A program made the translations under genes and the position numbers. This document shows, one piece after another, positions 28,816-64,000 of a DNA stretch of 64,000 bases. The notes under the pieces are model-generated. The model did no database searches and had not been told where the DNA came from. It was given only the letters and a program-made list of their open reading frames with translations. Source of the DNA: Roseiflexus sp. (lineage in GTDB: Bacteria > Chloroflexota > Chloroflexia > Chloroflexales > Roseiflexaceae); assembly GCA_034432635.1 (NCBI GenBank), contig DAOUBK010000101.1, positions 263-64,262 on the forward strand. Reading direction: 5' to 3'. Positions within the stretch are counted from its first letter, which is position 1, and each line of letters begins with the position of its first letter.

Positions 28816-28824
28816 AGTCGGTTC
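28795..28824. repeat. Heptamer repeat GAACCGA GAACCGA GAACTGA plus an inverted copy TCGGTTC
   Basis: Read directly. The third unit contains the stop codon of GT-C paralog 1. The inverted copy can pair with unit 2 (7 bp). The paralog 2 start follows at 28835. Confidence 0.6.
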
Positions 28825-28834
28825 ATTATCAATT

Positions 28835-30898: not shown

Positions 30899-30922
30899 CA
30901 ATCTGATTGAGGTTCCAGTTCC

Positions 30923-51500: not shown

Positions 51501-52806
51501 AGACAACCCCCGAATTCAAGCCGATGCGCTGCTGAAGCAGGGATGACGCCGCAGACTGTGATCGAGCTCCAGAGTCATCATGATCGCTCAGGATCGCTTC
51601 GATATGGGCATTTACATCGTGCAGACCTTCCTGCATGGCCAGTGCAGCGTGCGCGGCTCGCTCGGCGTGATCCTCATACGCAGCCGGAGCGCCAAAAATT
51701 GCCAGCAGTTTCACGCCTTCCTCAGCCACGTCCAGTTTGTTGATCACCCCACCGTAGCGCGCAATCGCGGATTGCATGGCAACCATGTAGCGCTCGAACA
51801 GTTGCGCAGACTGCACCGGCGGCAGCGCCTCCGCCAGCGCCTCAAGTCCGACGACCTGCGCGAATAACGCAGTCACCGGTCGCAGATCGGCTTCGATCTG
51901 CGGTTGGTCCGGAACGGCGATGATCCGGCTCAGCAGTGCGGGTGGCAGGTAGGGACTGAGACGGTCGAGATCGTCCAGGAGGTCGGTAAGCGTCTCACCG
52001 GCTTTCATTGTGTCCGTCCGAAGGCGTTCGGCGCCCGAGGGGGTGGTTGCATTGATCGTCGTGTGCAGGCGAAAGAAGCCTGATGGCAACATATCGCCCA
52101 CGACATCGACATCGGCGAGCAGCTCACGTGTGCGCCGCCCAAGAACGATCTCGCCCGGACCCGCCAGCGCCTCGGCGCGCGCCACACCGTTGACAACCGC
52201 GCCAAGCGCCGCGTAGTGCCACGACTCGGACTGCCCGGCGCTGACCAGCGCTACCTGACCGCTCTCCACCCCAATGTGCAGATAAACGGGGAAATCGCCG
52301 ATGCTGGCGACGTGGCACACAAAACCGTGCAGAGCGCGCTGCAGGTCTACGGCTGCACACGTGGCCGTCCGTGGATGATCGACATCATCGAACATCACCA
52401 GGAGCGCATCGCCGCCGAACGAAATCAGATCGCCGCCATATGCGTGGATCACATCGATCATGCGCGCGAAGACACCGTTGAGAAAATCGGTGACCAGTTC
52501 GATGCCTTCCCGTCCCAGCACGCCAAGACGTTCTGCCAGCACTGTCGAGCCGGAGAGATCGGCAAACAGCAGCGACCCTTCGATCCATTGCAACCAGGGC
52601 GGAGAGAGATATTCATCCAGCGCGCGGTGCACGATCCGCCGTGGCAGATAGGTGGCAATGGTCGCGCGCACTGCTGCAAGATGCGTAAAGACGGAATGCA
52701 GGTCAACACGACCGGCAGTATGACTCAGGCGGTCGTACATATCCATCGGCAGGTAGCGCGTCAGTCGTTCTGATGCTACCACGCTGATGTCTGCAGGGTA
52801 AGGCAT
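48538..52806 (-). CDS. STAND-type signalling protein: two tandem class III nucleotide-cyclase homology domains, an AAA/NACHT-like ATPase and TPR repeats
   Basis: CHD1 (52132-52578) has FADLSGST and GGDALLVMF. CHD2 (51292-51879) has LFAQVVGLE, GGVINKLDVAEEGVKLLAIFG and YTVMGDAVNIAARV. Walker A is GEAGVGKS (51124-51147), followed by a long TPR region. The start at MPYPAD (52806) is preferred; the 82-aa upstream extension is Arg/His-rich and overlaps the neighbouring gene. Confidence 0.85.
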   Translation of the reverse strand: MPYPADISVVASERLTRYLPMDMYDRLSHTAGRVDLHSVFTHLAAVRATIATYLPRRIVHRALDEYLSPPWLQWIEGSLLFADLSGSTVLAERLGVLGREGIELVTDFLNGVFARMIDVIHAYGGDLISFGGDALLVMFDDVDHPRTATCAAVDLQRALHGFVCHVASIGDFPVYLHIGVESGQVALVSAGQSESWHYAALGAVVNGVARAEALAGPGEIVLGRRTRELLADVDVVGDMLPSGFFRLHTTINATTPSGAERLRTDTMKAGETLTDLLDDLDRLSPYLPPALLSRIIAVPDQPQIEADLRPVTALFAQVVGLEALAEALPPVQSAQLFERYMVAMQSAIARYGGVINKLDVAEEGVKLLAIFGAPAAYEDHAERAAHAALAMQEGLHDVNAHIEAILSDHDDSGARSQSAASSLLQQRIGLNSGVVFAGNVGSATRKEYTVMGDAVNIAARVMSAAPWGDVWCSQALGNSASRIVCEPRGSVALKGKTEPLELCRVVSERDGGEVARLLLREAHPLVGRERELAWLSGELDAARVGSGRAVRLVGEAGVGKSRLVAALIEMANECRMRVVSAACLSYTATIPYAAWGELLKSLCGLVAGESSEVRAAKIADHLAALGPGMDEWLPLLGDLVRLDIPDNRLTRGLDPQLRQERRFDLLERLLLHAASRDPLLVIFEDLHWADPVSLELWRRVAHAVRQAPVLLLGAHRPTPALTGDDQAAVLEVRELPADDSDRLVKILAGDVPLPETLRCQIAARAAGNPLFMAELLRVVLVQSNQALLHSLDSLPDSLNGLLLARIDRLDEHARNVLRVASVIGQRIPFGVLQAIQTVDRIALLRQLTHLDEQEITILERLEPERVHTFRHALLQEVAYQSMLYSRRRELHGRIGEYLEQRYADDLDDYYGLLAHHYRLSNRRDKAIHYLLKAGHAARAVFANEEALQYYAWALDALAEDTDDPRTWETRTAIADVEATLGHYDKALLHLAHILETPGIPPDVAQQAYHRRGAVLEKQGMYAAALEALEQAMLVVRTHPTEVAPLAMAHINADIALVRRRRGEYDLALVACEEGLAALHTAVRTVENEQIEARLHAESGSVLTLRGEYARAREFFERSLRVRESIDDLPGMIASHNNIGYLWQLQSDHERALEHYRVAETLARKIGLQYAIVYALGNIAYSLTILGQYAEAEACCAEALELSRRLHAQLTTAQLLNTLGIIHYRRGDCERARAVFEEALQSHHALGSTDQEANTLVHLAQTYSALGDPRQAAELARRVLATAEALQAPLLRIEALNALAEAMIGYGDRESAAAYADQAVELSRSLGADDLMAIALRLRGEATVAGRYSWQEDFIGSATLCEAVRDRFELARTWQAYGAALLRTSNLNEGIAYLKRAFDTFTLTGADGEVRRMRSMYHDMLGL

Positions 52807-52922
52807 GTTTTCTGCCTTTTGATGCAGCACCATACTGTTCTGGTGGAGAAAACGCGCAACGCTGCTTTCATTATAACGTATACAGACGACTCCGCGGGCT
52901 ATCGCGCTGTCTCCTGAAGCGT

Positions 52923-54464
52923 TCATTCCGCCGATGTGCGTATCAGTTCGCGCGGGAAACCGCCATCGAAGGCGATGACCAGCGTATTCGGGCGCAATTC
53001 GCGCTCGACATCGCCTGTGCCAATGACCATCGCGTGGATGCGGACGCCACAACTCAGATGAATGATCGCTTCGACGTGCGGCGCTGCGATTGGCGGCTCA
53101 ACCACTAGGATGCGCTCGAAAACAGCGTCGGCGCACTGTGCCGCTGCGAACAGGCGCAATTCTTCGCTAGGACGCGCGCCGGCGGCAAAACGAACTTCGC
53201 GCCCTCGAATTTCATTCACCGCCAGCGCGCCGGATAGTGTCACAATCGCTATTGCTGCCGCACCGACGAATATGCGTAGGATAGGGATGCGCCTCTCTTC
53301 CCATGGGATGCGCTGCCCGACAGCACTGTCCCCTGTGCTTCCGGTCACGCCGGTCGCTGTTCGATGTGTTCCCAACGATGTGATCCATCCGACAAGTTTT
53401 GATGCGCCTGCCCCGATGAGGAGTGCGATTACCAGAACCGGCAGATAGAGGTAGCGCGAATCAGGCGCCGAGGCGAACGGTGCGGTAGGGATAAGGGTCA
53501 GGATCAGCGCCAGGAAGCCGGTCAGCAGAGACGCTCCTCCGCTCCGGAGTCGCCAGCAGACGAAGAGTACGCCCGCGCACGAGAGCACCACGAATGCGCC
53601 AGCCAGGGGCAACCACGCTTCCCGACCATACTCGACGCCGGGTAACGGCACAGCGATCAGACCGAGACTGCGGAGCGGGTTGAGGACAACCTGGATGCCC
53701 AAACCGTAGCCGCGCGCGCGCACCACGTCGTTGCGTGCAGCGACATCGAGTGCGACAACGAGATATGCGCCGGTGACCAGGAGCGGCAGAACGAGTGGAC
53801 ACCACTCAGGGCGCCGTCGCGCAGCACGCGCCGCCTGCCATTCCAGTAGCGCGAACAACGGCAGGCCGATGATTGCGCTCTCTTTCGTCAGCAACGCCAG
53901 TGCCAGCACCGCTGTCGCAGCCACACGCCATCCCCAGCGATGCGTCGCCTGTTGATCGGACCCTCCGGCGCTCCACCAGCAATGCGCTGCAAGCAGGAGC
54001 AAGCAGGCAGCGAGGAGTTCACTCTGCGCCGAAACCCACACCACTGCCTCGAACGGCGCCGGATGGAGCGCGACGAAGAGCATCGTCCCGCTGAAGCCGA
54101 CGATGGACGCGAGCGGCGACTGCGCCTTGATCAGGCGGTATGCCAGGGCGCCGGTGAGCGCTGCGTTGAGCGTGTGCAGCGCTAGGGAAAGGAAATGAAA
54201 GGCGCGCGCATCGAAGCCGAACAGTTGCCATTCACTCCATAGCAGCAACCAGACCAGCGGACGGTAGAAGTGGGATGCAGCACCCACATCGAAGGCGCGC
54301 GCTGCAACTTCCGGCAACGACCGATCTCGAACATTCAGCACCCATTGAAAATCATCGGCAGCGAATGCGCGATCGGGAACGGCACGATACGCGACGGATA
54401 CGGTCATTACTGCGACGACTGCTGTGACGATCATCAGCAGCGCATATCGTTGTGCAGCGGGCAT
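52923..54464 (-). CDS. Polytopic GT-C-like membrane protein (TMTC/DUF1736-type N-terminus) with a small C-terminal soluble domain
   Basis: The motif is ADDFQWVLN...HFYRPLVWLLLWSEWQLFGFDARAFHFLSLALHTLNA (DD loop, YRPL, H-x-x-N pattern). There are more than 10 TM helices. Confidence 0.55.
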   Translation of the reverse strand: MPAAQRYALLMIVTAVVAVMTVSVAYRAVPDRAFAADDFQWVLNVRDRSLPEVAARAFDVGAASHFYRPLVWLLLWSEWQLFGFDARAFHFLSLALHTLNAALTGALAYRLIKAQSPLASIVGFSGTMLFVALHPAPFEAVVWVSAQSELLAACLLLLAAHCWWSAGGSDQQATHRWGWRVAATAVLALALLTKESAIIGLPLFALLEWQAARAARRRPEWCPLVLPLLVTGAYLVVALDVAARNDVVRARGYGLGIQVVLNPLRSLGLIAVPLPGVEYGREAWLPLAGAFVVLSCAGVLFVCWRLRSGGASLLTGFLALILTLIPTAPFASAPDSRYLYLPVLVIALLIGAGASKLVGWITSLGTHRTATGVTGSTGDSAVGQRIPWEERRIPILRIFVGAAAIAIVTLSGALAVNEIRGREVRFAAGARPSEELRLFAAAQCADAVFERILVVEPPIAAPHVEAIIHLSCGVRIHAMVIGTGDVERELRPNTLVIAFDGGFPRELIRTSAE

Positions 54465-54507
54465 AGTGTGTCTGCGGATTATCAGGATGTACAGGCGATA
54501 ACGCTGC

Positions 54508-54828
54508 TCAATCGCGCAATGACCTGATCTGCTGGCAGAGCCAGTCGAACTGCGCCTGGTTCAGCACATAGCAGGTCGCCGGTCCCTCCGCTTCGGCATG
54601 AAGCAGACCGGCAGCACACAGGATCTTCAAATGTTGCGACAGTGTCGACTGAGCACGTGCCAGTTGCGCAGGCAGATGTAACTGTATCTGGTTGCCGATG
54701 CAGCGTGGATGACGTTGAACATAGCGCACAATTGCAAGACGGACGGGATGTGCAAGCGCCCGACACGCAGCAATCAGACGATCATCGTCGGATAGTGTCG
54801 CTATCATCATAGCAGACCTCTCCGCCAC
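54508..54828 (-). CDS. ArsR/SmtB-family transcriptional regulator
   Basis: The wHTH is LAHPVRLAIVRYV...STLSQHLKILCAAGLLHAEAEGPATCYVLN. The classic ELCVCDL metal site is absent. Confidence 0.8.
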   Translation of the reverse strand: MAERSAMMIATLSDDDRLIAACRALAHPVRLAIVRYVQRHPRCIGNQIQLHLPAQLARAQSTLSQHLKILCAAGLLHAEAEGPATCYVLNQAQFDWLCQQIRSLRD

Positions 54829-54896
54829 AATGTACGCTTCTCTGCGCGATATGTCAAGCGTGGTCTTTGTCTTGCAAAGACCCCGTCAGATTGTAT

Positions 54897-55371
54897 CCAC
54901 CCAGCGCGCCCCTGCAATTCCTGGATGGTTCGGATGGCGTACCCGTTCTGGCGCAGCAGACGGATGGTGCGGGAGGGACACAGAGCAGGAGGTCTGACCG
55001 GCATGAGGATACCGGTGCGTTGGGCTGCCTAGCGGATGGCTGTGTACGTCGCCGCTCTCGTCGAGATGGTGGTGTCGCTGCACAGGTCGCTCGCCAGGCG
55101 TGAGGTTGTCAACGAGGTGTAGCAAATCCGCTTCTACAGCGTCGGTTGTGTCATTTCATCCCCGCCCGGAACGAAACGACGTCGAGAACTGCCGATTCCG
55201 AACCCGCTCAGGGTCTTGACCGGCGTCCCGATAGAATTGCACCTCGAGTTCCGTAAGTTCGGGAGGACGATGCCCGGAACGGGGATAAGACCCGAAGAAG
55301 CGGATGAAATATCCCGGAAACCTGCTCAACCTGGTGAGCAGGCGAAAGAACGTTCGCAGATAGTACATCAC
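54897..55371 (-). pseudogene. Remnant of a tyrosine recombinase (IntI/XerD-like) gene
   Basis: The N-terminal SAM-like fragment (ORF 55156-55371, GGAGG SD) reads GYFIRFFGSYPRSGHRPPELTELEVQFY. The C-terminal fragment (54897-55019) reads RTGILMPVRPPALCPSRTIRLLRQNGYAIRTIQELQG, which resembles [32 protein letters not shown]. The catalytic core between them is missing. Confidence 0.45.
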
Positions 55372-55543
55372 ACCTCCTGATCTCTACGTTCTCGACAGAA
55401 TTACGTTCTGTGCGCATATACAGACGGAACAATGTTGCACGTCTGTACAGCCCGCGAAGGCGGGCTTCGCATCAGTGGCCCGTAGTCAGTCGCCTGGTTA
55501 TAGGGCGAATGCCGGTTTCTACACGATACCCGCGCACGCAATA

Positions 55544-55582
55544 TGCACGCAGTTCGACAATTCTGCACGTTTGAGCGACAAT
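55544..55582. repeat. Tandem direct repeat TGCACG-N5/6-CGACAAT (two units)
   Basis: The units are TGCACGCAGTTCGACAAT (55544-55561) and TGCACGTTTGAGCGACAAT (55564-55582), read directly. A further TGCACG lies at 55436-55441. Confidence 0.5.
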
Positions 55583-55591
55583 ACCCAGGCG

Positions 55592-56356
55592 TCAGGTAGA
55601 AAAGATCAGCTCACGCTGCGCAAATGAGTACACTGCCAGCGAAAGCAGTCCGAACACCAGGAACAACTGCGCAACAGGAACGACCGCCGAAGCGCCGCTG
55701 TAATCGCGGCTCACCGATATGGCGAAACCAGTGAAAGCCGGCAGTAGTGGCGTGCTCAAGACGGTGCGCAGAACATCCAGCGCCAGTGCCACTGGCGCTG
55801 GCAGCGTCGACATTGTTGAACCGCCGATCAGGTTCCCCGAAAACGCCAGTGCAACCAGTGCCAGAACTGCCAGGCGCCACGGCGCCGGCAGCACAATCGG
55901 CGTCAGTAGAGTCAGTAGCGCCGCCAGCATTGCCAGGTTCAGCAGCAGCGGCAGCGTTCCCAGCGTCCATCCGGCAATATTGAGACCACTCACCGGGTTC
56001 GTGAGTGCAATCAGTAAACAGATGATGCCATACACGCCCCACGATACTGCCAGAACCGCGAGATAGAGACCGATCAGATACGGACCGCGCCCCAAACGTC
56101 GCGCCAGAGTCACATATCCCTGGGGCCGGTCGCCAAGCGCAAGGATGGTCGAACCTGTGTACACAGTCAATCCCAGTGTGAACAAACCAGCCGTCGAAAA
56201 GAAATAGTCCGGCGTCATCGGCAGCGTCCAGCGACGGAAGAACAGATAATAGGCTGCGGCTGTCGCCGCCAGTTCAATCACGATCCGTCCCGAGCGCAGG
56301 TATTCGCTCAGCGTGAAGATGGCAAACCAGAATGTGCGTAGCAACGCCTGCATCAC
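55592..56356 (-). CDS. Six-helix membrane protein, probable permease partner of the adjacent ABC ATPase
   Basis: 254 aa with about six hydrophobic helices. A 4-nt overlap with the ATPase stop suggests coupling. No family motif was recognised. Confidence 0.5.
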   Translation of the reverse strand: MMQALLRTFWFAIFTLSEYLRSGRIVIELAATAAAYYLFFRRWTLPMTPDYFFSTAGLFTLGLTVYTGSTILALGDRPQGYVTLARRLGRGPYLIGLYLAVLAVSWGVYGIICLLIALTNPVSGLNIAGWTLGTLPLLLNLAMLAALLTLLTPIVLPAPWRLAVLALVALAFSGNLIGGSTMSTLPAPVALALDVLRTVLSTPLLPAFTGFAISVSRDYSGASAVVPVAQLFLVFGLLSLAVYSFAQRELIFST

Positions 56357-57378
56357 GGTTCGTCCGTCCGACTTTCCTGCGTCCGTTGATCTTCCCGACG
56401 CAGCAACTCGTGCAACAATGTGTCTCCAGTTCCTGACAGACCTGGAGGCGGAGGTGCGTCCAGCCTTCCATCACGATCTGCCTCGCCACGCACGGCGCTG
56501 AGGTAGAACTCCTCGACCGGGTGGAACCGTGGCGCGAGGGAGAGGATGGAAACCCCATGATCGAGCAACAGCCGCAAGACCTGCGCCTGCAATTCTGGTG
56601 TGTTGGGCGCCAGGGTTATTTCGCGCTGATTGCAACACACTGCGGTCGATAGCGCACTCAGCGCCGCTGCTACGTCGGGTGGCAGATCCACGACCGTGAT
56701 CACGACACTCCTCGACGACCGGCGAAGTGCTCGCGTTTCGGCTTCCGCGATCATATGCCCGCCATGCAGAATGCCGAAACGATCACACAGGAGATCCACC
56801 TCATCGAAAAAATGCGTCGCCATCAGTATTGTGCATCCGCGCTGGCGAATCGTACCGAGCAGATCGGTAATGTCGCGTTGCCCTTCCGAGTCGAGCTCAG
56901 ACGTCGGTTCATCGATCAGCAACAGTTCCGGCTGGCTGATCAGCGCCTGAGCAAAACCGACACGCTGCACCATCCCGCGTGTGAGGGCGCTCATCTGCCG
57001 GTTGACGACGCCGATCAAACCACACGCCTCGATTTCCTCGTCAACTCGCCGACGCAGCAGTGCGCCAGCAAGTCCGCTGAACTGCCCCAGGTAGAAGAGA
57101 TACTCGCGCACGGTGTAGCGCGTATGGTAGCGCAAACGTTCTGGTACGTAACCAACCCGCCCATCGACCCGATGCAGGTTCTCATCGCCGAGAACACGCA
57201 CGATACCGCGGTCTGCACGCAGAAAGCCGACTAGGAGATGGATCAGGGTCGTTTTGCCTGCGCCGTTTGGACCCAGCACCCCATAGACGATGCCGCGTGG
57301 CACGTGCAACGACACACCGCGCAGTACAGGTATGCCGTCGTATGATTTGTGGACATTCTCGAGCGCTATGACGTCCAT
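56353..57378 (-). CDS. ABC transporter ATP-binding protein (ABC-2/Nat/Ccm-type) with a C-terminal extension of about 100 aa
   Basis: Walker A GPNGAGKTT, signature LTRGMVQRV, Walker B LLLIDEPTSELD and an H-loop (ATHF) are present. The start at MDVIALENV (57378) is preferred; the 215-aa upstream extension of the listed ORF is Arg/Gly/Cys-rich and overlaps the NuoH-like gene. Confidence 0.85.
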   Translation of the reverse strand: MDVIALENVHKSYDGIPVLRGVSLHVPRGIVYGVLGPNGAGKTTLIHLLVGFLRADRGIVRVLGDENLHRVDGRVGYVPERLRYHTRYTVREYLFYLGQFSGLAGALLRRRVDEEIEACGLIGVVNRQMSALTRGMVQRVGFAQALISQPELLLIDEPTSELDSEGQRDITDLLGTIRQRGCTILMATHFFDEVDLLCDRFGILHGGHMIAEAETRALRRSSRSVVITVVDLPPDVAAALSALSTAVCCNQREITLAPNTPELQAQVLRLLLDHGVSILSLAPRFHPVEEFYLSAVRGEADRDGRLDAPPPPGLSGTGDTLLHELLRREDQRTQESRTDEP

Positions 57379-57382
57379 GAGA

Positions 57383-57417
57383 GAACTGAGAACCAGGAAC
57401 TGAGAACCGGGAACCGA
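57383..57417. repeat. Five tandem heptamers GAACTGA GAACCAG GAACTGA GAACCGG GAACCGA
   Basis: Read directly. They fill the 44-nt spacer between the NuoH-like stop (57423) and the ABC ATPase start (57378). The unit family matches that at 28795-28824. Confidence 0.6.
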
Positions 57418-57422
57418 ACACT

Positions 57423-58241
57423 CTATCCTGCCGCCAGGTGCAGATAGACGTTGACAATCAATGCTACAGGCAGGGCGCGCAGAAGGCACCAGCGCATCGT
57501 CGTGTGCAACGACGCCAGTGGAAGGGTACGGCGCGCCTGGCGCAACCCTGCAAGCAACACAGCCAGGAGCGCCAGTGCCATCATCGCTGCGATCCAGGGT
57601 TGAACGACGTCCGAGCCAGGAAGAATGCCGACTACAAACAGCGCCAGCGCCAGCCCTGCGCGCATCTGACGCGCCAGCTGCGCCAGCCACCGTTCGCCGA
57701 CATCGAGTCCTGCCTCCGCCCCAGACGGCGTCAGGCTGGTATCCGGAGCGAACGGACCCAGACCGGCGGCGGCAGCGACAGCCACCACCCCTACCAGGAA
57801 CAGGCAGAGCCGTCCCAGAACTTCGAGAGCACCCCATCCCACATCGCCCCACAGTGAACTTCCAACCACAATCCACAGCACCAGGCGGCCAGCCATGTTC
57901 ACCTGCGCTTCCCGAAGCGCTGCGCGTGCCACCAGCGGCGATGGCGCCAGGAGCCCGGCAAACGCCGGCACGAGGAATGCCCCTTCGACAAGCGCCCACA
58001 CCAGCGCCGGGCGCCCGACCCACGCAGAGGCGCCTGCCGGATGCAGGGGCCAGGGAAGCGCAACATATGCCAGAACGGTCAGAATAACGCTAGCGCCCGA
58101 CGCCAGACTATCGATACTCGTCGGGAAACGTCGCTTCGGCAGACGCAACGCGAGACCGGCGCCGTTGATTGCCAGGGTTACGGCGATGCTCAGCCCTGTC
58201 GCCAGGAGAACTGCAAGAATCAGTGTGATAACAATATGCAT
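57423..58241 (-). CDS. Divergent NuoH/HycD/EchB-like membrane subunit
   Basis: Polytopic, 272 aa. AALREAQVNMAGRL resembles the G-x-LR-x-x-AQ-x-ISYE block, and PFAPDTS...GAEAG resembles the PFD-x-x-E-x-E loop with the acidic residues lost. Confidence 0.45.
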   Translation of the reverse strand: MHIVITLILAVLLATGLSIAVTLAINGAGLALRLPKRRFPTSIDSLASGASVILTVLAYVALPWPLHPAGASAWVGRPALVWALVEGAFLVPAFAGLLAPSPLVARAALREAQVNMAGRLVLWIVVGSSLWGDVGWGALEVLGRLCLFLVGVVAVAAAAGLGPFAPDTSLTPSGAEAGLDVGERWLAQLARQMRAGLALALFVVGILPGSDVVQPWIAAMMALALLAVLLAGLRQARRTLPLASLHTTMRWCLLRALPVALIVNVYLHLAAG

Positions 58242-58271
58242 ACTGCGGTACTGCTCGCCTGCTGCGTCTTC

Positions 58272-58658
58272 CTATGGTTCCCCGGCAATTGTACGAATCG
58301 CTTCGATGATCTGCGCTGGTGTCGGCGGGCAACCATTGAGCGCCACATCTACCTTCAGGTTGGGAACGACAGCAACCCCGCCGCGTCCAAACGGATACCC
58401 GTCGATAGCGCACCGTCCAATAGCACAGATTAGCGCCCTGTGCCCCAACTCCTGAAGCAGCGCCATGAACGCCGTCCTCGTGCCGGGCGTCAACGGGCCT
58501 GTCAGCAGCAACACATCAGCCTCGCAGGGTGTCGTTGCCCAGTCAATATCGGCTGCGGCAGCGATTGCGGCAGTGATTTCCAGATCACAACCGCCGCACG
58601 AACCGGTGTTGAACCGGTAGACCCGTATCACGCGCTGTTCCTTTCGGTGCCTGTTCAT
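58272..58658 (-). CDS. NuoB / group-4 hydrogenase small-subunit homolog ([4Fe-4S] proximal-cluster type)
   Basis: RVYRFNTGSCGGCDLEI, ADVLLLTGPLT, GRCAIDG and NGCPPTP together provide four Cys in the canonical spacing. The start at MNRH (58658) is preferred. Confidence 0.8.
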   Translation of the reverse strand: MNRHRKEQRVIRVYRFNTGSCGGCDLEITAAIAAAADIDWATTPCEADVLLLTGPLTPGTRTAFMALLQELGHRALICAIGRCAIDGYPFGRGGVAVVPNLKVDVALNGCPPTPAQIIEAIRTIAGEP

Positions 58659-58707
58659 GCTGTGCTGCGCCGGGAACCAGAAACGAAACAACCTTCAACA
58701 CACGACG

Positions 58708-60213
58708 TCAAAACCGTACAAAGGTCAGACCACTGATAACATCGGCAATCGTTGCGATCAGCGGTTGCGGATACACTCCGATTGCCAGACTGATCCCCAG
58801 CAGCGCCATCACGACAATTGCCGTGATGAACGGCTCGGACGCCAGACGGCGCCGGGTCGGCAGATCGAGTTCGGTTGCGCCCGACAACACTGGCGCCTCA
58901 GCCACTGCTTGATCTTCGGGAGCGCCGATCAACCAGTCACGTGCGACGCGCGCCAGCGCCAGCAATGCCAGCAGTGTCGCGCCGATCAACAGCACGACCA
59001 TGGGTGCACCGTAGGATGCAGCAACCTGGTACAGCAATATCTTACCGGCAAAGCCACTCAACGGCGGCAAACCGATCAACGCTGCGCCGCTGCACAATAA
59101 GCCGCTTCCAGCAACGGGCCAGCGCCAGAGCATATCGCGTCGCATCGCCTTCGGTAGCCGTCCATCCGGTTGTTCCAGCAGCACCAGCGATACCATCAAC
59201 AGTGGAACCGCCAGCATCTGGTTGAATGCCTCGAACACCGCACCCATCAGACCAACCGGCGTGATCGTCGCCAATCCGAACAGGATCATTCCGGTATTAT
59301 AAACGACCAGATACCCGGCAGTGCGTCGCGGTCGATCCTGCAGAAGCGCTAGTAATGCACCGGCCAGCGCAGCAATCGCTCCCAGCCAGGTCAACAGCGC
59401 CAGTTCACGCTCGTTTCCGGCTACCAGGGTTGGAAAGAACTGCAAGACGCTGATCAGAAACAGCAGTCCCGTCGTGTTCAGCACCACAACGATGACCGCC
59501 GACGCCAGCGGAGAAGCGTCCTCAACCAGATCCGGCAACCAGGAATGAAATGGCACAAGCGCCATGCGTAACCCAAACGCCGCCACAATAAGCGCCAGCA
59601 CGAGGCGCGGCGCGATCGGATCGGGTGTGACGCCAGGACGGTACACATTGATCAGGACGAAGCCGAGATACGCTAGCGCACCGGCCAGCGCCATGAGCAC
59701 CAGATACTTGAGTGCTGACGCGATCACTTTTGGTTCCACCAGTCGTGATGTTCCGGGTGGAAGATCAACAATCGCAAGCACAGAGATCAACCCGGCGCTG
59801 ACCAGGAGCAGCGCCACTATCAGCGGCTCCTGAAGCAAAACGATCATCGCCGACGCAACACCGATGATGATGAGCGTCATTGAGACGAAGTGCTCGCCGT
59901 GCGGCAAACGCCACGTTGCCAGTATCATCAAAGCGATTACTGCCGGGAAACCGGCAAGGAACAAACGTCCAAGCGGATCGAGGTTGAGTGTCAGACCAAG
60001 CAACCGCACCGGCTGATCGACCGGCGCGAGGATCACCAGGGCACAGTGCGCAATCAGCGCGGCAATCGCCACCCCAATGACCAGTCGCGTCTCGTGGCGC
60101 AGCAGGAAACAACTCGCACCGAGCGCCAGAGGAAAGGTTATGAGAAGCACGTAGGGCATACATCCCGCCGGAATACGCTGACGCCGACACCGGCGTACAG
60201 CGATGGTTGTCAC
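58708..60213 (-). CDS. Mrp/NuoM/NuoN-type antiporter-like subunit
   Basis: About 14 TM helices with the Proton_antipo_M signature FHSWLPDLVEDASPLASAVIVV. A GTG start overlaps the upstream stop by 4 nt; an alternative ATG is at 60159. Confidence 0.75.
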   Translation of the reverse strand: MTTIAVRRCRRQRIPAGCMPYVLLITFPLALGASCFLLRHETRLVIGVAIAALIAHCALVILAPVDQPVRLLGLTLNLDPLGRLFLAGFPAVIALMILATWRLPHGEHFVSMTLIIIGVASAMIVLLQEPLIVALLLVSAGLISVLAIVDLPPGTSRLVEPKVIASALKYLVLMALAGALAYLGFVLINVYRPGVTPDPIAPRLVLALIVAAFGLRMALVPFHSWLPDLVEDASPLASAVIVVVLNTTGLLFLISVLQFFPTLVAGNERELALLTWLGAIAALAGALLALLQDRPRRTAGYLVVYNTGMILFGLATITPVGLMGAVFEAFNQMLAVPLLMVSLVLLEQPDGRLPKAMRRDMLWRWPVAGSGLLCSGAALIGLPPLSGFAGKILLYQVAASYGAPMVVLLIGATLLALLALARVARDWLIGAPEDQAVAEAPVLSGATELDLPTRRRLASEPFITAIVVMALLGISLAIGVYPQPLIATIADVISGLTFVRF

Positions 60214-60929
60214 GGTTTGTACAGGACACTGAGATCGAGCGTCTTGAGCCGTCCATACATCAATCCGCTCAAATACGCGACCGACAGCGCGAGGACGATT
60301 GTGGTCAGACTCAACAACGCCAGCGGAAACACCTGAACGGTGCTGGCAATAGCGGTATAGACCAGATCGATACTGCTGACGACCAGGAGTAACCCCAGAC
60401 CGATCTTCAACGTATCACCGGCGAGCACAATGGTAAACAGTCCGGTCAACCCCAGCCAGTACCAGGCAAAATCGACCGTCTGACTGCCGATTGGATAGAG
60501 GCGCGGAAGCGCAACGCTCGCCAGCGCTGCAAGCACCAGCGCCCAGAACGGCACAACATACTCGGCAAGGCGAAACGGTTCACCGGCGCGCTGTCGCTGC
60601 GCACGCCGCGCCGCACGGCGCAGTTCCGCCAGCGAGAATTCGTCGAGATCCTCCAGATTGTACTCCCGCGAAAAGGTCACTGCCGTGATCGCCAGAATAG
60701 CGCTGGCAGCAAAGCCGGTGATCATCTTGACCACAATCGTCGTGCTGAGCGTAATCTCGCCGACGGTCAGATCGGGCGTGATGAACTGCTGCTGCGCCAG
60801 AAACCACGCAACGCTGAGATAATTGATCAACATCGCTGGAATGGTAATCCGCCAGTCGCGCAGCAGAAGCACAATCCCGCTGGAGACCGCCAGACCGACA
60901 ATTGCCCAGTTGATCGCGAAGGTCGGCAT
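60210..60929 (-). CDS. 239-aa polytopic membrane subunit of unknown family (position suggests a HyfE/NuoJK-like role)
   Basis: Two blocks of hydrophobic helices are separated by a charged loop (EDLDEFSLAELRRAARRAQRQRAGE). The gene is tightly packed between the two antiporter-like genes. Confidence 0.4.
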   Translation of the reverse strand: MPTFAINWAIVGLAVSSGIVLLLRDWRITIPAMLINYLSVAWFLAQQQFITPDLTVGEITLSTTIVVKMITGFAASAILAITAVTFSREYNLEDLDEFSLAELRRAARRAQRQRAGEPFRLAEYVVPFWALVLAALASVALPRLYPIGSQTVDFAWYWLGLTGLFTIVLAGDTLKIGLGLLLVVSSIDLVYTAIASTVQVFPLALLSLTTIVLALSVAYLSGLMYGRLKTLDLSVLYKP

Positions 60930-60932
60930 CGA

Positions 60933-62669
60933 TCACCCCGCTGCAAAAACAAGAATGACAACAATCAATGCAAAAACGACCACTGCCAGATAGTAACGGC
61001 GCCCCAACACTGCCAGCCTCTGCCGGATCAGCAGTGCAGCCCGCCCCAGTCCGGTCTGCATCGTTTCGGGCGCTGCGGGTGCTGCAAGCCACACCAGCCC
61101 GTACAACGCCGTGCCGGTTGTGTCCGGGGTCAATACCGCTGTCAGAGGCTCTTCCGTCGGTGGTGCGCGACGCTGCCGGACGCGACGCAGCGCTACTGGC
61201 GCTGTAATTACGAGCAGCGCAGCGATCATTGCAGCGATCGATCCCGGCAATGACGGAAACCGGGGTATCGCCGTAAGCGGTGCAAACTGCGCCGGAATTG
61301 CCGCCAGCGCCACGTCCCATACTGCACGGGGAGCGGCGCCCATGAGCGCCAGCAATGCGCCCACCAGCGCAGGCAGTGTGTCGCCCGGATGGGCGCGCCA
61401 TTGCGACCGGGAAAACCCTGCCGCCTGCCAGAAGCGCACCAGCGGCGCCAGCATCACCAGCGCCAGCAGACTGCTCCCCGCAAGCAACAGCGCCACCGCC
61501 CATGGCGCAGAGCGCTGCATCGCATCGAACAACCAGAGCCGCGTCCAGAATCCCCAGGCGCCGGGGATGCCCACTACCGAAGATGCTGATACAATCAGCC
61601 CCACGAATGCAACATGCAACGCACTATCGGGATGCCGGGTAAGCGCAGTCACATCATCGGCGCCGCTCCGACGCTCGAGTGCAGCAATACTTAACCCCAG
61701 CCCCAGAGTCGAGATCAGCGCATTGATCGCCAGGGCGGGCGCCACGTGCAAGAAGGCGCCCTCGCCGCTTCCGGCGCAAACGATGATCAGCGCAACCTGA
61801 GCGCTCAGCTGCGCCGCTGCCGTCTGACGCAACGAGTGCGTCCACAATGCGCGTGCAGCCGCCAGCACAAACGCCAGGACGCCGATGACCACGATGATGA
61901 TCAGGTGCGTCTCTTCCAGTAGCGCTAGATAGTCCGGCAGCAACCGCAACGATGCAGCCATCCCGATCAGCGGCAGACCAAACGGCGCCACGACAGCCAG
62001 CGGCGCCGGCGCCTGATACACCGCAGCAAGCGATCCAAACGCTGGTGGGAGACCGCAGAGCGTCCAGGCGTATATCAGGATGCCTGCAACCATTAGGATA
62101 GGCGCACCCGACGCCGCACCGGTACCGTCGTTCAGCAGCCCTGCCACGAGAAACAACGCCGCCGCGCTGCCAGACAGCGCCAGAATGAGTGGCGCATCCG
62201 ATCCCGGCAGCACACTGCTGGATCGCAGTGCAACGAACCATGCCACACCGACGGCAACCGGCGCGAACGCCAGCACTGGCAGCGTCGGACTGCACGCGCC
62301 GATTGCGGCGACGCCCGGAACAACGATCAGAGCTGCAAACAACCTGCCAAAACCACGTAGATCGGGAGGGATCGCCAGCGCCGATCCCAGCAGAGCGAAT
62401 GCGCCGCCGATCAACGCCATCAACGCCAGGAGCCACCCCAGCGGATCGATGACCAGCGTGATCCGAAACGATACATTACTCCACTGCAACCAGGTGTGGT
62501 CAACCACCATCGGCAGCAATCCCTGAAGGCGCGCAACAATCATCAGGATAGCGCCGAAAAACAACGTACCGGCAGCGCCCAGCCCTATCAGGCGTGCGGT
62601 AACCAAACGATCCAACGCCAGACAGACAACCGCACCGATCAGAGGTAGCATGAGCGCTAATGGAACCAT
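60933..62669 (-). CDS. Degenerate NuoL/HyfB-type antiporter-like subunit
   Basis: The N-terminal block RITLVIDPLGWLLALMALIGGAFALLG resembles the NuoL-type l-x-l-D-x-L-S region. The WLP-x-A-x-E-x-P-x-P-V-S motif is degenerate (GLPPAFGSLAAVYQAPAPLAVV). ATG 62669 lies 4 nt after the large-subunit stop; a GTG at 62696 would overlap it. Confidence 0.5.
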   Translation of the reverse strand: MVPLALMLPLIGAVVCLALDRLVTARLIGLGAAGTLFFGAILMIVARLQGLLPMVVDHTWLQWSNVSFRITLVIDPLGWLLALMALIGGAFALLGSALAIPPDLRGFGRLFAALIVVPGVAAIGACSPTLPVLAFAPVAVGVAWFVALRSSSVLPGSDAPLILALSGSAAALFLVAGLLNDGTGAASGAPILMVAGILIYAWTLCGLPPAFGSLAAVYQAPAPLAVVAPFGLPLIGMAASLRLLPDYLALLEETHLIIIVVIGVLAFVLAAARALWTHSLRQTAAAQLSAQVALIIVCAGSGEGAFLHVAPALAINALISTLGLGLSIAALERRSGADDVTALTRHPDSALHVAFVGLIVSASSVVGIPGAWGFWTRLWLFDAMQRSAPWAVALLLAGSSLLALVMLAPLVRFWQAAGFSRSQWRAHPGDTLPALVGALLALMGAAPRAVWDVALAAIPAQFAPLTAIPRFPSLPGSIAAMIAALLVITAPVALRRVRQRRAPPTEEPLTAVLTPDTTGTALYGLVWLAAPAAPETMQTGLGRAALLIRQRLAVLGRRYYLAVVVFALIVVILVFAAG

Positions 62670-62673
62670 AAGC

Positions 62674-63750
62674 CTATTGCTCGGCGCAGGCGACACACAT
62701 AGCGAGCGACGCCAGAATTGCGATTACATCGTCCAGTTGCGCCCGGCTCAACAGTGTGCGCGCCAGCAGTCGATCACACTGACGCGGCGTATCGATCTGC
62801 ACCCGCGTCAATCGCACGCCATCGCTCTCGAGGGTATAGTGAATAGCGCCACGAGGACCCTCCACAACCGAGGAGGATTGACCACGCGGCAGTTCGTGCG
62901 GTAGTTCGACGATCGGGTCTTCTTCGGGGAGACGTTGCAGCGCAGACTCGACGAGTTTGACACCTTCATACGCTTCCAGCAAGAGCACCAGTAGACGCGC
63001 GTATACATCGCCGCCTTCCTGAATGATCGGATGTACGTCGAGCATACTGTACGCTGCGTAGGGTTGATCAACACGGACATCGCGACGAATGCCGGAAGCT
63101 CGCGCCAGCGGACCACGCACACCGAACTGCTCGGCTGCTGCGCGTGGCAGCGTCCCGACCTCAACAGTACGTGTGAGCAGGAAACGTTGATCGATGAGGC
63201 GATCAATGAAGCGATAAAGGCCGGCGCTCATCCCCGGCGACATTGTCAGCAACGCCTGCCGGTCAACCGGCGTCAGGTCGCGCAACAGACCACCCGGTAC
63301 GCAGACCGGCGGCGGAATGCGACCACCGGTGATCAGCGCCAGCATATCACGGAACTGCTGACAGGCATGATCGAGAAAAAGGCTGCGCTGCTCCAGACCA
63401 ATTGCGCGTAACACCGCGCTCGCCGCACGGATATGAGCAGCCGTCCGCTCCAGCTCTGCGATTGCAACCCGGATCAATGCAGCGCGCACCCCCACGCTTC
63501 GCTGTTGCAGCTGCTCGATCGCCTGACAGAACGCCAGTGAATGGGCAAAGGAGCACTCACCGCAAATCCGCGCAACCAGGTGCAGCGCATCGGGCAGAGA
63601 CAACCGTGGTAATCGCTCAGCGCAACCGCGCTCGTTGAACCCGTTCTGATACTCGACATCGACGACGCGATCGTCGACAATGCGCAGAATGAAGCGCTGC
63701 GGACCAGACAAGGCAGGGTGGAAAGGTCCCAGCGCCAGCGAGTATGACAC
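62674..63750 (-). CDS. Group-4 [NiFe]-hydrogenase large-subunit / NuoD homolog retaining both CxxC ligand pairs
   Basis: LGPFHPALSGPQRFILRIVDDRVVDVEYQNGFNERG is the GP-x-HP...G-x-x-x-RG block. RICGECSFAH lies at 63541-63570. The C-terminus is LAMCVACAEQ-stop, with Cys codons at 62695-62697 and 62686-62688. Length is 358 aa, Ech-like. Confidence 0.8.
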   Translation of the reverse strand: MSYSLALGPFHPALSGPQRFILRIVDDRVVDVEYQNGFNERGCAERLPRLSLPDALHLVARICGECSFAHSLAFCQAIEQLQQRSVGVRAALIRVAIAELERTAAHIRAASAVLRAIGLEQRSLFLDHACQQFRDMLALITGGRIPPPVCVPGGLLRDLTPVDRQALLTMSPGMSAGLYRFIDRLIDQRFLLTRTVEVGTLPRAAAEQFGVRGPLARASGIRRDVRVDQPYAAYSMLDVHPIIQEGGDVYARLLVLLLEAYEGVKLVESALQRLPEEDPIVELPHELPRGQSSSVVEGPRGAIHYTLESDGVRLTRVQIDTPRQCDRLLARTLLSRAQLDDVIAILASLAMCVACAEQ

Positions 63751-63844
63751 GCCTGCACTCCTTCATATGCATCGGGCGCGCATTATACCACGTTATGCGG
63801 CGTGTCATAACAACCGGCGTGACAATCCGTTACACAACGATCAA

Positions 63845-64000
63845 TCAGGACATCACCGGCGTTATCTCAAGAAAGATCGGCGTTGCGCGCCGCAATTTCC
63901 AGAGAGCGGCAAACATCTGGAACATCACCCCATATTTCTTTGCCAGCGCGCGACGCGCGGCTTCTCCTTCAGAAGGAGCAAGGATACGCGCCTGCGCCTC
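63845..64000 (-). CDS. 3' end of a gene running off the window; possibly a PPOX/split-barrel flavin- or F420-binding protein
   Basis: The frame is open from 64000 to the TGA at 63845-63847: EAQARILAPSEGEAARRALAKKYGVMFQMFAALWKLRRATPIFLEITPVMS. It resembles C-termini of the pyridoxamine-5'-phosphate-oxidase-like family. The call is weak. Confidence 0.3.
   Translation of the reverse strand, partial: EAQARILAPSEGEAARRALAKKYGVMFQMFAALWKLRRATPIFLEITPVMS

What the first reader, a model, noticed from the sequence alone, without database searches (positions are those of the whole stretch)
57423..63750. Stripped-down six-gene group-4 [NiFe]-hydrogenase/complex-I-like module that keeps the Ni-Fe cysteines but has no NuoC/NuoI-type partners
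**Gene order (minus strand, abutting or overlapping)**
- Large-subunit homolog (62674-63750, 358 aa).
- Degenerate antiporter-like subunit (60933-62669).
- 239-aa polytopic protein (60210-60929).
- Antiporter-like subunit (58708-60213).
- NuoB/small-subunit homolog (58272-58658).
- NuoH-like subunit (57423-58241).

**Seen directly**
- The large subunit keeps both ligand pairs: RICGECSFAH (63541-63570) and C-V-A-C ending three residues before the stop (...LAMCVACAEQ). There is thus no protease-cleaved extension.
- The flanking consensus is altered: GFNERGCAER where the usual pattern is G-x-x-H-R-G-x-E-K, and A-M-C instead of D-P-C.
- The small subunit keeps four Cys (SCGGC, GRCA, NGCPP).
- One antiporter-like subunit keeps FHSWLPDLVEDASPLASA, and the other is degenerate at that motif.
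- The NuoH-like protein has PFAPDTS where an acidic PFD-x-x-E-x-E loop is expected.

**Missing from the whole window**
- Any 2x[4Fe-4S] NuoI/HycF/EchF-type gene.
- Any NuoC/EchD-type gene.
- Any hyp or endopeptidase gene.

**Neighbours**
- The upstream neighbour looks like a split-barrel flavin/F420 protein.
- The downstream neighbours are an ABC pair.

**Why it stands out**
- A hydrogenase-type catalytic pair with no recognisable electron-transfer partner matches neither canonical Ech/Mbh/Hyf/Coo operons nor, as I remember them, the Cys-less Ehr complexes.
Basis: partly seen in the sequence, partly recalled or inferred. Interest (0 to 1): 0.7.

Follow-up and report, generated by a model that had tools for sequence, protein, structure and literature searches.

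The report
Stripped-down hydrogenase-like membrane complex in Chloroflexia
A Roseiflexus operon encodes a pared-down relative of membrane-bound nickel-iron hydrogenases; it keeps the metal-binding cysteines but has lost the proton-relay residue and the usual electron-input subunits, and related bacteria lose still more parts, so it is probably no longer an ordinary hydrogenase.

Summary
Six abutting minus-strand genes encode a 358-aa large-subunit homolog, two Mrp-type antiporter-like subunits (one degenerate), a 239-aa protein with weak NuoK/MrpC-like matches, a NuoB homolog and a protein whose predicted fold is NuoH-like.

- **Metal ligands:** the four large-subunit cysteines align with the Ni-Fe ligands of MbhL and HycE. 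NuoB keeps a hydrogenase-type four-Cys cluster site.
- **Missing partners:** no NuoC, NuoI, hyp or endopeptidase gene is in the window, and none is hidden as a fusion.
- **Against a hydrogenase:** the proton-relay Glu (MbhL E21) is Gly here and is never Glu in the family representatives examined. It is Glu in 82 of 91 four-Cys representatives outside the family.
- **Larger unit:** in 72 related loci, mostly from Chloroflexia, the unit also includes an ABC ATPase and an orphan membrane protein. Roseiflexaceae add an ArsR-type regulator.
- **Variable parts:** sister lineages lose cysteines, NuoB or NuoH while keeping the large subunit and the membrane core.
- **Comparison with Ehr:** the one Cys-less Ehr-like locus examined carries NuoC and NuoI as fusions, so this is not that layout.

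Verdict: a hydrogenase-derived, probably non-H2 ion-translocating module. It is a new variant of a known kind; function is untested.

The parts
62674..63750 (-). Large-subunit homolog (NuoD/MbhL/HycE-like, 358 aa). It keeps four Cys at the Ni-Fe ligand positions (C63, C66, C352, C355), plus His70 and Arg300. It lacks the proton-relay Glu (Gly16) and the Asp of DPC (Ala350).
60933..62669 (-). Degenerate MrpA/MrpD/NuoL-type antiporter-like subunit (578 aa). The canonical TM7, TM8 and TM12 lysines are all replaced.
   Evidence: Weak NCBIfam MrpD match. No single-sequence PDB hit. The family profile hits MrpA, MbsH, MrpD and MbhH at up to 4.5e-22.
60210..60929 (-). 239-aa six-helix membrane subunit, the most conserved protein of the locus. 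It is probably a tandem NuoK/MrpC-type (HyfE/EhrC-like) subunit. An invariant charged linker (EDLDEFSLAELRRAARRAQRQ) and invariant D172, K175 and D188 are present.
   Evidence: Alignment. Profile match to MbsG/MrpC at E 0.022 for residues 160-239. 13 of 27 members weakly match Oxidored_q2. AlphaFold pLDDT 78, but no significant whole-model fold match.
58708..60213 (-). Antiporter-like subunit (501 aa, Proton_antipo_M). The TM7 Lys is an invariant Arg216, the TM8 Lys is absent, and the TM12 Lys391 is mostly kept.
58272..58658 (-). NuoB/small-subunit homolog (about 128 aa). It has a hydrogenase-type C-x-x-C...C...C-P-P site for one [4Fe-4S] cluster and no ferredoxin domain.
   Evidence: Cys spacing compared with the description in PMC7684303.
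57423..58241 (-). NuoH/ND1-like membrane anchor (272 aa), recognisable only by its predicted fold. The acidic loop is reduced (PFAPDTS...GAEAGLD), and E86 is the only invariant acidic residue within its predicted helices.
56353..57378 (-). ABC ATPase of the DrrA/GldA/NodI (ABC-2 exporter) type, 44 nt downstream of the NuoH-like gene. It is a conserved member of the locus.
   Evidence: It follows the NuoH-like gene in 35 of 35 loci.
55592..56356 (-). 254-aa polytopic membrane protein with no recognised family. It overlaps the ABC ATPase stop codon and is its conserved partner.
   Evidence: Present in 29 of 31 loci.
54508..54828 (-). ArsR/SmtB-family regulator (106 aa) with a conserved HPxC motif and its own promoter-like site. 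It is linked to the locus only in the Roseiflexaceae/Kouleothrix-type loci.
   Evidence: Present in 11 of 29 loci.
63845..64000 (-). C-terminal fragment of a PNPOx-like split-barrel flavoprotein gene that runs off the window. This neighbour was found only in the Roseiflexus loci and L012, so it is probably not part of the module.

Best explanation
**What it is.** The locus encodes a reduced descendant of an Mrp-linked, Mbh-type group-4 [NiFe]-hydrogenase, found mainly in Chloroflexia. It no longer works as a canonical H2-evolving enzyme.

**Conserved machine (inferred from homology).** The membrane module is built from two MrpA/D-like subunits and a probable tandem NuoK/MrpC-like subunit, capped on the cytoplasmic side by the NuoD-like protein. 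It most likely moves cations or protons across the membrane.

**Accessory parts.** In most lineages a NuoH-like anchor and an ABC-2-type ATPase with an orphan membrane protein travel with the core. In about 60% of loci a NuoB subunit does too.

**The Roseiflexus version.** Here the cap is the most complete form. NuoB probably still binds one [4Fe-4S] cluster, and the large subunit still offers four Cys to a metal site.

**Proposed mechanism (inference, not shown).** I propose that this pair acts as a redox- or metal-responsive element that drives or gates ion translocation, as suggested for Ehr complexes, rather than turning over H2.

**Shown:** homology, anatomy, ligand conservation, loss of the proton relay, and the pattern of gene loss across lineages. 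**Inferred:** ion transport, cofactor content, and redox gating.
For: **Ancestry**
- The large subunit is closer to MbhL and HycE than to NuoD.
- Its nearest relatives outside the family are mostly canonical four-Cys group-4 large subunits at 30-33% identity.
- One such relative examined sits in an Mbh-like operon with NuoC and NuoI.
- A rough neighbour-joining tree places the family as one clade. The basal member P0312 still has HRGVEK and LDEP.

**Loss of catalytic features**
[quoted passage not shown] It aligns with Gly16 here.
- That position is Glu in 82 of 91 four-Cys representatives outside the family, and never Glu in the family representatives examined.
- MbhL D372 corresponds to Ala350, and Ile70 to Glu65.
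- There is no NuoI-type electron-input subunit and no NuoC, and neither is fused to another gene.

**Dispensability in sister lineages**
- Of 43 loci with enough sequence, 25 have NuoB and NuoH, 12 have NuoH only, and 6 (Herpetosiphon) have neither.
- Cys ligands were lost several times.
- The NuoB-less Oscillochloris clade keeps all four large-subunit Cys. There they cannot belong to an electron-transfer chain unless NuoB is encoded elsewhere.
- A member with no Cys and no NuoB keeps the membrane core, the NuoH-like gene and the ABC pair.

**Invariant core and altered membrane chemistry**
- The order large subunit, antiporter-like 1, 239-aa protein, antiporter-like 2 holds in 54 of 54 loci.
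- The 239-aa subunit is the most conserved, at 61% mean column identity.
- Invariant Arg216 replaces the TM7 Lys in 49 of 49 sequences.

**Retention in Roseiflexaceae**
- The four large-subunit Cys are invariant across 19 proteins spanning 54-88% identity to the window protein.
- The NuoB Cys are conserved wherever NuoB is present.

**Precedent**
- MbsL keeps two of the four Cys, and mutating them did not affect catalysis (PMC7684303).
Against: - All eight metal-ligand Cys are strictly kept in the Roseiflexus/Kouleothrix clade, together with His70 and the PRG arginine. This is what a working Ni-Fe site with a proximal cluster would also show.
- A neighbouring Glu (E46, in RGCAER) or bound water could substitute for the missing relay.
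- According to a review of Chloroflexota (PMC11218635), homologs of the Roseiflexus group 1f [NiFe]-hydrogenase are highly expressed in geothermal mats. I infer from this that the genus probably has Hyp maturases available.
- Ion transport is inferred only from homology, and both antiporter-like subunits lack canonical lysines.
- No experiment or expression data were examined.
- NuoB could be encoded elsewhere in the 'NuoB-less' genomes; only about 10 kb on each side was seen.
- The tree is a rough neighbour-joining tree.
Confidence: 0.45

Rival explanations
1. It is a genuine minimal group-4 [NiFe]-hydrogenase. Reduced ferredoxin or flavodoxin (or, in Roseiflexus, the PNPOx-like flavoprotein) docks directly on the exposed NuoB cluster. 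Electrons pass to a Ni-Fe site, protons are reduced to H2 (or H2 is oxidised), and the energy drives the antiporter-like subunits.
For: - The four Cys align exactly with the Ni-Fe ligands of MbhL and HycE. His70 and Arg300 are kept.
- NuoB has the hydrogenase-type C-x-x-C spacing.
- All eight Cys are invariant across Roseiflexaceae.
- The missing C-terminal extension is normal for group 4.
- The basal family member P0312 still has canonical motifs.
- The genus is reported to express a group 1f [NiFe]-hydrogenase (PMC11218635), so Hyp proteins are probably present (inference).
Against: - The proton-relay Glu is lost in the family representatives examined. The Asp of DPC is lost in Roseiflexus.
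- There is no NuoI or NuoC, which the canonical relative examined has.
- Relatives drop NuoB or Cys ligands without losing the rest.
- Canonical pumping lysines are replaced.
- No hyp genes are nearby.
Confidence: 0.2
2. It is a purely secondary, non-redox Mrp-like cation/proton transporter (or part of an ATP-driven transport system with the ABC pair). The NuoD/NuoB cap is a structural relic, and the Cys bind only a structural metal such as Zn, or nothing.
For: - The core of large subunit plus membrane subunits persists without NuoB, NuoH or Cys in Herpetosiphon and in L084.
- The ABC pair is tightly linked to the locus.
- No electron-input subunit is present.
- The Mbs precedent shows retained Cys that are not needed for catalysis.
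Against: - Invariance of all four NuoB Cys and all four large-subunit Cys over deep divergence in Roseiflexaceae is hard to explain for a relic.
- The N-terminal NERGCAER loop co-varies with the presence of NuoB, which suggests a functional interface.
- MrpB, MrpE, MrpF and MrpG equivalents were not found.
Confidence: 0.2
3. It is a reductase for another substrate, in the manner of Mbs (sulfane sulfur) or another small molecule. Catalysis would occur at the NuoB cluster or at the two CxxC pairs acting as redox-active dithiols.
For: - The Mbs precedent shows a hydrogenase-derived complex with a changed substrate and without E21.
- In Herpetosiphon the four-gene core lies directly downstream of genes that look like a persulfide-dioxygenase/rhodanese fusion, a rhodanese and a TauE-type exporter. 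This identification is by inspection of the translations only.
- The ArsR homolog has a weak BigR-type match at 2.7e-5.
Against: - The sulfur genes are found only next to the Herpetosiphon loci, which lack NuoB and one Cys.
- The regulator's Cys pair is not conserved.
- NuoB has four Cys ligands, not the three of MbsJ.
- There is no electron-input subunit.
Confidence: 0.08

Closest known systems
Mbh-type (Mrp-linked) group-4 [NiFe]-hydrogenase, e.g. P. furiosus MBH (PDB 6CFW)
   Same: - It is the best solved relative of the large subunit (8.5e-38), and all four Ni-Fe Cys, His and the PRG Arg align.
- NuoB has the same C-x-x-C cluster motif.
- It also has a NuoH-like anchor, MrpD-like subunits and an MrpC/NuoK-like subunit.
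- Its large subunit likewise has no C-terminal extension.
   Different: - No MbhK (NuoC), no MbhN (NuoI), and none of the small Mrp-like subunits.
- The E21 proton relay is Gly.
- The antiporter lysines are replaced.
- Gene order starts with the large subunit.
- The locus is linked to an ABC pair.
[quoted passage not shown] 2013 as cited in PMC6349859; Geobacter GSU0739-45, PMC7894505)
   Same: - Hydrogenase-derived large and small subunits sit with a NuoL-like subunit, a HyfE-like subunit and a further antiporter-like subunit.
- Function is unknown and presumed to be ion-translocating.
- Some members of this family have lost the Ni-Fe Cys, which fits the Ehr definition.
   Different: - Ehr is defined by lacking the Ni-Fe ligands; the window protein keeps all four.
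- The one Cys-less Ehr-like locus examined (Methanolobus, L075) has a NuoC::NuoD fusion and a Fer4::NuoB fusion. Here both domains are absent.
- The large subunits are only about 30% identical.
Mbs/Mbx membrane-bound sulfane-sulfur reductase (PDB 6U8Y)
   Same: - It is a hydrogenase-derived complex that lost E21 and changed function while keeping some Cys.
- The 239-aa subunit's only PDB match is MbsG.
- The antiporter-like subunits match MbsH and MbsH'.
   Different: - MbsL keeps two Cys, not four.
- MbsJ has three cluster ligands, not four.
- Mbs retains NuoC- and NuoI-type subunits and the full Mrp module.
Mrp Na+/H+ antiporter (PDB 7D3U, 6Z16, 7QRU)
   Same: - The two large membrane subunits are MrpA/MrpD-like.
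- The 239-aa subunit is weakly MrpC-like.
   Different: - Mrp has no NuoD-, NuoB- or NuoH-like subunits.
- MrpB, MrpE, MrpF and MrpG were not found here.
- The canonical lysines are replaced.

Membership tests
Functional group-4 [NiFe]-hydrogenase | Four Cys (two CxxC motifs) at the Ni-Fe ligand positions of the large subunit | tested here: met
   C63, C66, C352 and C355 align with the ligands of MbhL and HycE. They are invariant in 19 Roseiflexaceae-type proteins.
Functional group-4 [NiFe]-hydrogenase | Proton-relay glutamate next to the terminal Cys (MbhL E21; HPxxxEP motif) | tested here: not met
   It aligns with Gly16. The position is Glu in 82 of 91 four-Cys representatives outside the family and never Glu in the family representatives examined. 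Its role is stated in PMC7684303 and PMC8679088.
Functional group-4 [NiFe]-hydrogenase | Canonical flanks: HRGxEK, R-x-C-G-[ILV]-C-x-x-x-H, D-P-C-x-x-C-x-[DE]-R | tested here: not met
   The window has NERGCAER, RICGECSFAH and AMCVACAEQ. The canonical forms are seen in the representatives outside the family.
Functional group-4 [NiFe]-hydrogenase | Small subunit with four Cys for the proximal [4Fe-4S] cluster, C-x-x-C spacing | tested here: met
   SCGGC, GRCA and GCPP are conserved across the family. The spacing matches the description for MBH.
Functional group-4 [NiFe]-hydrogenase | NuoI/HycF/EchF/MbhN-type 2x[4Fe-4S] electron-input subunit | tested here: not met
   None was found in the window or as a fusion. 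None lies in the 10-kb flanks of relatives. It is present in the canonical relative examined.
Functional group-4 [NiFe]-hydrogenase | NuoC/EchD/MbhK-type subunit | tested here: not met
   No Complex1_30kDa match was found in any scanned window ORF. The large subunit has no N-terminal extension.
Functional group-4 [NiFe]-hydrogenase | NuoH-like membrane anchor | tested here: met
   Fold match to NuoH/ND1 at TM about 0.70, probability 1.0. There is no sequence-level match.
Functional group-4 [NiFe]-hydrogenase | Hyp maturation genes in the genome; Ni-Fe(CO)(CN)2 cofactor; H2 activity | not testable with these tools
   No hyp genes are in the window. A review reports group 1f hydrogenase expression in Roseiflexus.
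Ehr complex | Large subunit related to group 4 but lacking the Ni-Fe-binding residues | tested here: not met
   The window protein keeps all four Cys. The definition is taken from PMC6349859, PMC12342949 and PMC10284858. Some sister-lineage members do meet it.
Ehr complex | Mrp antiporter-like membrane subunits together with NuoB-, NuoD- and NuoH-like subunits | tested here: met
Ehr complex | NuoC and ferredoxin domains present, as fusions in the one Cys-less Ehr-like locus examined | tested here: not met
   L075 has a NuoC::NuoD protein of 534 aa and a Fer4::NuoB protein of 275 aa. The window proteins are 358 aa and about 128 aa and lack these domains.
Mrp antiporter | MrpA- and MrpD-type subunits with canonical TM7, TM8 and TM12 Lys/Glu | tested here: not met
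   Homology is clear. However, the TM7 Lys is Arg216 and the TM8 Lys is absent in the 501-aa subunit. All three are lost in the 578-aa subunit.
Mrp antiporter | MrpB, C, E, F and G small subunits | tested here: inconclusive
   There are only weak MrpC/NuoK-like matches in the 239-aa protein. No other small subunits were seen.

The most novel reading that the evidence does not exclude
The Chloroflexia family is a living series of intermediates in which a redox-driven Mbh-type pump is being taken apart. The order would be: first NuoC, NuoI and the proton relay; then NuoB; then the Ni-Fe cysteines; then NuoH. The end point is a NuoD-capped Mrp-like transporter.

On this reading, the Roseiflexus form keeps a metal centre and an Fe-S cluster that sense or use a redox signal (possibly H2) with no dedicated electron-input subunit, and works physically with an ABC ATPase. 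This would be a previously undescribed architecture in the complex I superfamily: a NuoD-like subunit bound to antiporter modules without NuoB or NuoH, and a link between a complex-I-like membrane arm and an ABC system.
Probability: 0.2. Interest if true: 0.8.

Novelty: new variant of a known kind. Interest (0 to 1): 0.6.

Why it matters
**Relevance to complex I evolution.** Group-4 hydrogenases, Mbs, Ehr, Mrp and complex I are used to reconstruct how respiratory complex I arose. All solved or well-described members keep NuoC- and NuoI-type subunits.

**What this family adds.**
- The NuoD/NuoB/NuoH 'adaptor' can persist without NuoC and NuoI.
- The NuoD-like cap can persist on Mrp-like subunits without NuoB or NuoH.
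- Retention of the Ni-Fe cysteines can be uncoupled from the proton relay.

**Practical warning.** Annotation pipelines and cysteine-motif-based hydrogenase classifiers may call these proteins hydrogenases or NuoD. Sources already name them 'Ni,Fe-hydrogenase III large subunit', 'ech hydrogenase subunit E' or 'NADH-quinone oxidoreductase subunit D'. That would inflate inferred H2 metabolism in Roseiflexus, Kouleothrix, Oscillochloris and Herpetosiphon.

**Experimental access.** The family occurs in cultured organisms, R. castenholzii and H. aurantiacus, so its function can be tested directly.

Tried and rejected
**Searches that found nothing useful**
- Sequence and profile searches of the 272-aa protein against Pfam, NCBIfam and PDB sequences gave nothing. 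Only the predicted fold identified it.
- A whole-model Foldseek search of the 239-aa protein gave no significant match.
- hhalign of the 239-aa and 272-aa families against single Methanolobus Ehr-like subunits gave nothing.
- The 254-aa ABC partner has no Pfam, NCBIfam or PDB relative, even at profile level.
- No riboswitch or other Rfam family lies in 54000-64000 that could have indicated a ligand. There is only a sub-threshold CRISPR-repeat-like hit.
- The promoter and terminator scans were no better than shuffled sequence.

**Partners considered and rejected**
- The PNPOx-like gene as an electron donor: found only in the Roseiflexus loci and L012.
- The Fer4 protein at 43188-44327 as a missing NuoI: it is GlcF-like, next to a GlcD-like oxidase, and 13 kb away.
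- A persulfide-sensing BigR role for the ArsR homolog: the second Cys is not conserved.

**Literature**
- The Greening 2016 hydrogenase survey (HydDB basis) could not be read, so no HydDB subgroup assignment was made.
- Literature searches found no description of this family.

Full report
**1.

The window comes from a Roseiflexus species. The large-subunit protein is 88-96% identical to Roseiflexus MAG proteins and 76% identical to the R. castenholzii protein.

Family assignments are as follows.

| Gene product | Evidence |
|---|---|
| 358-aa large subunit | Complex1_49kDa at 4e-38; weak NiFeSe_Hases |
| 501-aa protein | Proton_antipo_M |
| about 128-aa protein | Oxidored_q6 |
| 578-aa protein | antiporter-like only at profile level (MrpA 4.5e-22; also MbsH, MrpD, MbhH) |
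| 272-aa protein | no sequence match; AlphaFold model (pLDDT 86, pTM 0.84) matches NuoH/ND1 at TM about 0.70, probability 1.0 |
| 239-aa protein | MbsG/MrpC at E 0.022 for its C-terminal half; Oxidored_q2 weakly in 13 of 27 members |

All NCBIfam scores lie far below the curated cut-offs, so these proteins are very divergent. The 239-aa layout resembles the 218-aa HyfE-like subunit of a Methanolobus Ehr-like locus, which also carries Oxidored_q2 in its C-terminal half.

**2. The cysteines sit on the Ni-Fe ligand positions**

- The best solved relatives of the large subunit are MbhL (6CFW, 8.5e-38) and HycE (7Z0S, 1.5e-37), ahead of NuoD (about 1e-26).
- C63 and C66 align with the first CxxC, and C352 and C355 with the second.
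- The four Cys are invariant in 19 family proteins spanning 54-88% identity to the window protein.
- NuoB keeps C-x-x-C...C...C-P-P. That spacing is described for MBH and soluble hydrogenases, not for complex I or MBS (PMC7684303).
- The missing C-terminal extension is not unusual. Many canonical four-Cys relatives end at the same place.

**3. NuoC and NuoI are absent, and not hidden**

- A Pfam sweep of 36 window ORFs (the locus genes and the long ORFs elsewhere) found no Complex1_30kDa, no NuoI-type ferredoxin, no Hyp protein and no HycI.
- A six-frame motif scan agreed. The single Fer4 protein (43188-44327) is GlcF-like and sits beside a GlcD-like oxidase.
- The large subunit aligns end to end with MbhL, and NuoB is only about 128 aa, so no fused domain exists.
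- In contrast, a canonical representative (P0322, 30% identity) lies in an Mbh-like operon with separate NuoC and NuoI genes.
- A Cys-less Ehr-like locus (Methanolobus, L075) carries them as NuoC::NuoD (534 aa) and Fer4::NuoB (275 aa) fusions.

**4. Active-site details argue against a working hydrogenase**

[quoted passage not shown] It also belongs to the active-site model of PMC8679088.

- E21 aligns with Gly16 here.
- The position is Glu in 82 of 91 four-Cys representatives outside the family. It is never Glu in the family representatives examined.
- Only the basal relative P0312 keeps LDEP and HRGVEK.
- MbhL D372 corresponds to Ala350, and Ile70 to Glu65.
- The HRGxEK motif reads NERGCAER.
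- His70 and the PRG arginine are kept in Roseiflexus, but the arginine is His in several relatives.

**5. Comparative genomics changes the picture**

A scan of one genome per species gave 76 loci. Together with loci fetched earlier, 72 distinct loci belong to this family. Most come from Roseiflexaceae, Kouleothrix, Chloroflexaceae, Oscillochloris, Viridilinea and Herpetosiphon, plus Thermoflexus and several MAGs labelled only Chloroflexota. Three loci sit in MAGs labelled Klebsiella (two) or Gracilibacteria (one), which are probably mis-binned.

| Feature | Count |
|---|---|
| Order large subunit, antiporter-like 1, 239-aa, antiporter-like 2 | 54 of 54 |
| After the second antiporter-like gene: NuoB and NuoH-like | 25 of 43 |
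| After the second antiporter-like gene: NuoH-like only | 12 of 43 |
| After the second antiporter-like gene: neither (Herpetosiphon) | 6 of 43 |
| ABC ATPase directly after the NuoH-like gene | 35 of 35 |
| Orphan membrane partner after the ATPase | 29 of 31 |
| ArsR-type regulator after the partner | 11 of 29 |

- The conserved unit is therefore eight genes, or nine in Roseiflexaceae, not six.
- Cys ligands were lost repeatedly. Examples are Herpetosiphon HICAADSHAH, Chloroflexaceae RICGSDSHAH, and fully Cys-less forms.
- The NuoB-less Oscillochloris clade keeps all four large-subunit Cys. This separates these Cys from any electron-transfer chain, unless NuoB is encoded elsewhere.
- A member with no Cys and no NuoB keeps everything else, including the ABC pair.
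- The N-terminal NERGCAER loop is largely confined to loci that have NuoB. This fits a NuoB-NuoD interface.

**6. The membrane arm is also atypical**

- In the 501-aa subunit the TM7 Lys is an invariant Arg (49 of 49). The TM8 Lys is missing, and the TM12 Lys is mostly kept.
- The 578-aa subunit has lost all three.
- The 239-aa subunit is the best-conserved protein, at 61% mean column identity. It has invariant D172, K175 and D188 and a charged linker.

**7. Interpretation**

The family descends from an Mrp-linked group-4 hydrogenase. The lineage-invariant part is the NuoD-like cap plus the three membrane subunits. NuoB, the NuoH-like anchor with the ABC pair, and the metal ligands are all optional.

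The simplest reading is that the conserved function is not H2 catalysis. It is more likely some ion or solute translocation, with the cap in Roseiflexus keeping a [4Fe-4S] cluster and a Cys4 metal site that may gate or drive it. I give this reading a confidence of 0.45. MbsL provides a precedent for retained Cys that are not needed for catalysis.

A true minimal hydrogenase remains possible (0.2), because all eight Cys are invariant in this clade and the genus is reported to express another [NiFe]-hydrogenase. A purely non-redox transporter (0.2) and another reductase (0.08) are the remaining rivals.

**8. Novelty**

- Sources name these proteins 'NuoD', 'Ni,Fe-hydrogenase III large subunit' or 'ech hydrogenase subunit E', and name the partner proteins 'hypothetical'.
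- I found no paper describing the family.
- Ehr complexes are defined as lacking the ligands, and their function is still unknown.
- I rate this a new variant of a known kind, with interest 0.6. It matters for models of complex I evolution and as a warning against calling hydrogenases from cysteine motifs alone.

**9. Limits**

- No whole-genome access, so hyp co-occurrence and relocated NuoB genes could not be checked.
- No multimer model was built.
- The tree is a rough neighbour-joining tree.
- The HydDB subgroup was not assigned.
- All functional statements are inferences.

Noticed in passing
window 3421-4572 (-): A 383-aa ORF with OrfB_IS605 and Cas12f1-like TNB domains, that is, a TnpB/Cas12f-like IS605-family nuclease gene.
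   Followed up: no
window 48538-53052 (-): A 1504-aa protein that combines adenylate/guanylate cyclase domains, an AAA_16 STAND-type ATPase and many TPR repeats. It lies two genes downstream of the ArsR homolog.
   Followed up: no
window 54829-55591: A 764-nt gap lies between the ABC membrane gene and the ArsR gene. It holds a 71-aa ORF (55156-55371, minus strand) with a strong GGAGG ribosome-binding site, a 27-nt imperfect inverted repeat, and a sub-threshold CRISPR-DR28-like match at 55448-55471 (E 0.072) with no repeat array.
   Followed up: partly
window 10898-11923 and 15739-16956 (-): Two CofD-family (2-phospho-L-lactate transferase-like) genes lie close together, with a nucleotidyl-transferase/hexapeptide gene between them. 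This hints at an F420-related or similar cofactor cluster.
   Followed up: no
window 26413-33097 (+): Three consecutive large membrane proteins (710-800 aa). The second and third have PMT_2/PMT glycosyltransferase domains and TPR repeats, and the first has only a sub-threshold PMT_2 match. They look like tandem paralogs.
   Followed up: no
L036 7394-9882 (Herpetosiphon aurantiacus) and the other Herpetosiphon loci: The four-gene core lies directly downstream, on the same strand, of genes that look like an MBL-fold persulfide-dioxygenase/rhodanese fusion, a rhodanese and a TauE/SafE-type exporter. I identified these by inspecting the translations, not by a family search. The arrangement is found only in Herpetosiphon loci.
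   Followed up: partly
L042, L074, L078: Three family loci sit in MAGs labelled Klebsiella (two) or Gracilibacteria (one). They cluster with Chloroflexota sequences, so the contigs are probably mis-binned.
   Followed up: no
window 52923-54464 (-): A 513-aa polytopic membrane protein with no Pfam or NCBIfam match lies immediately downstream of the ArsR homolog.
   Followed up: no
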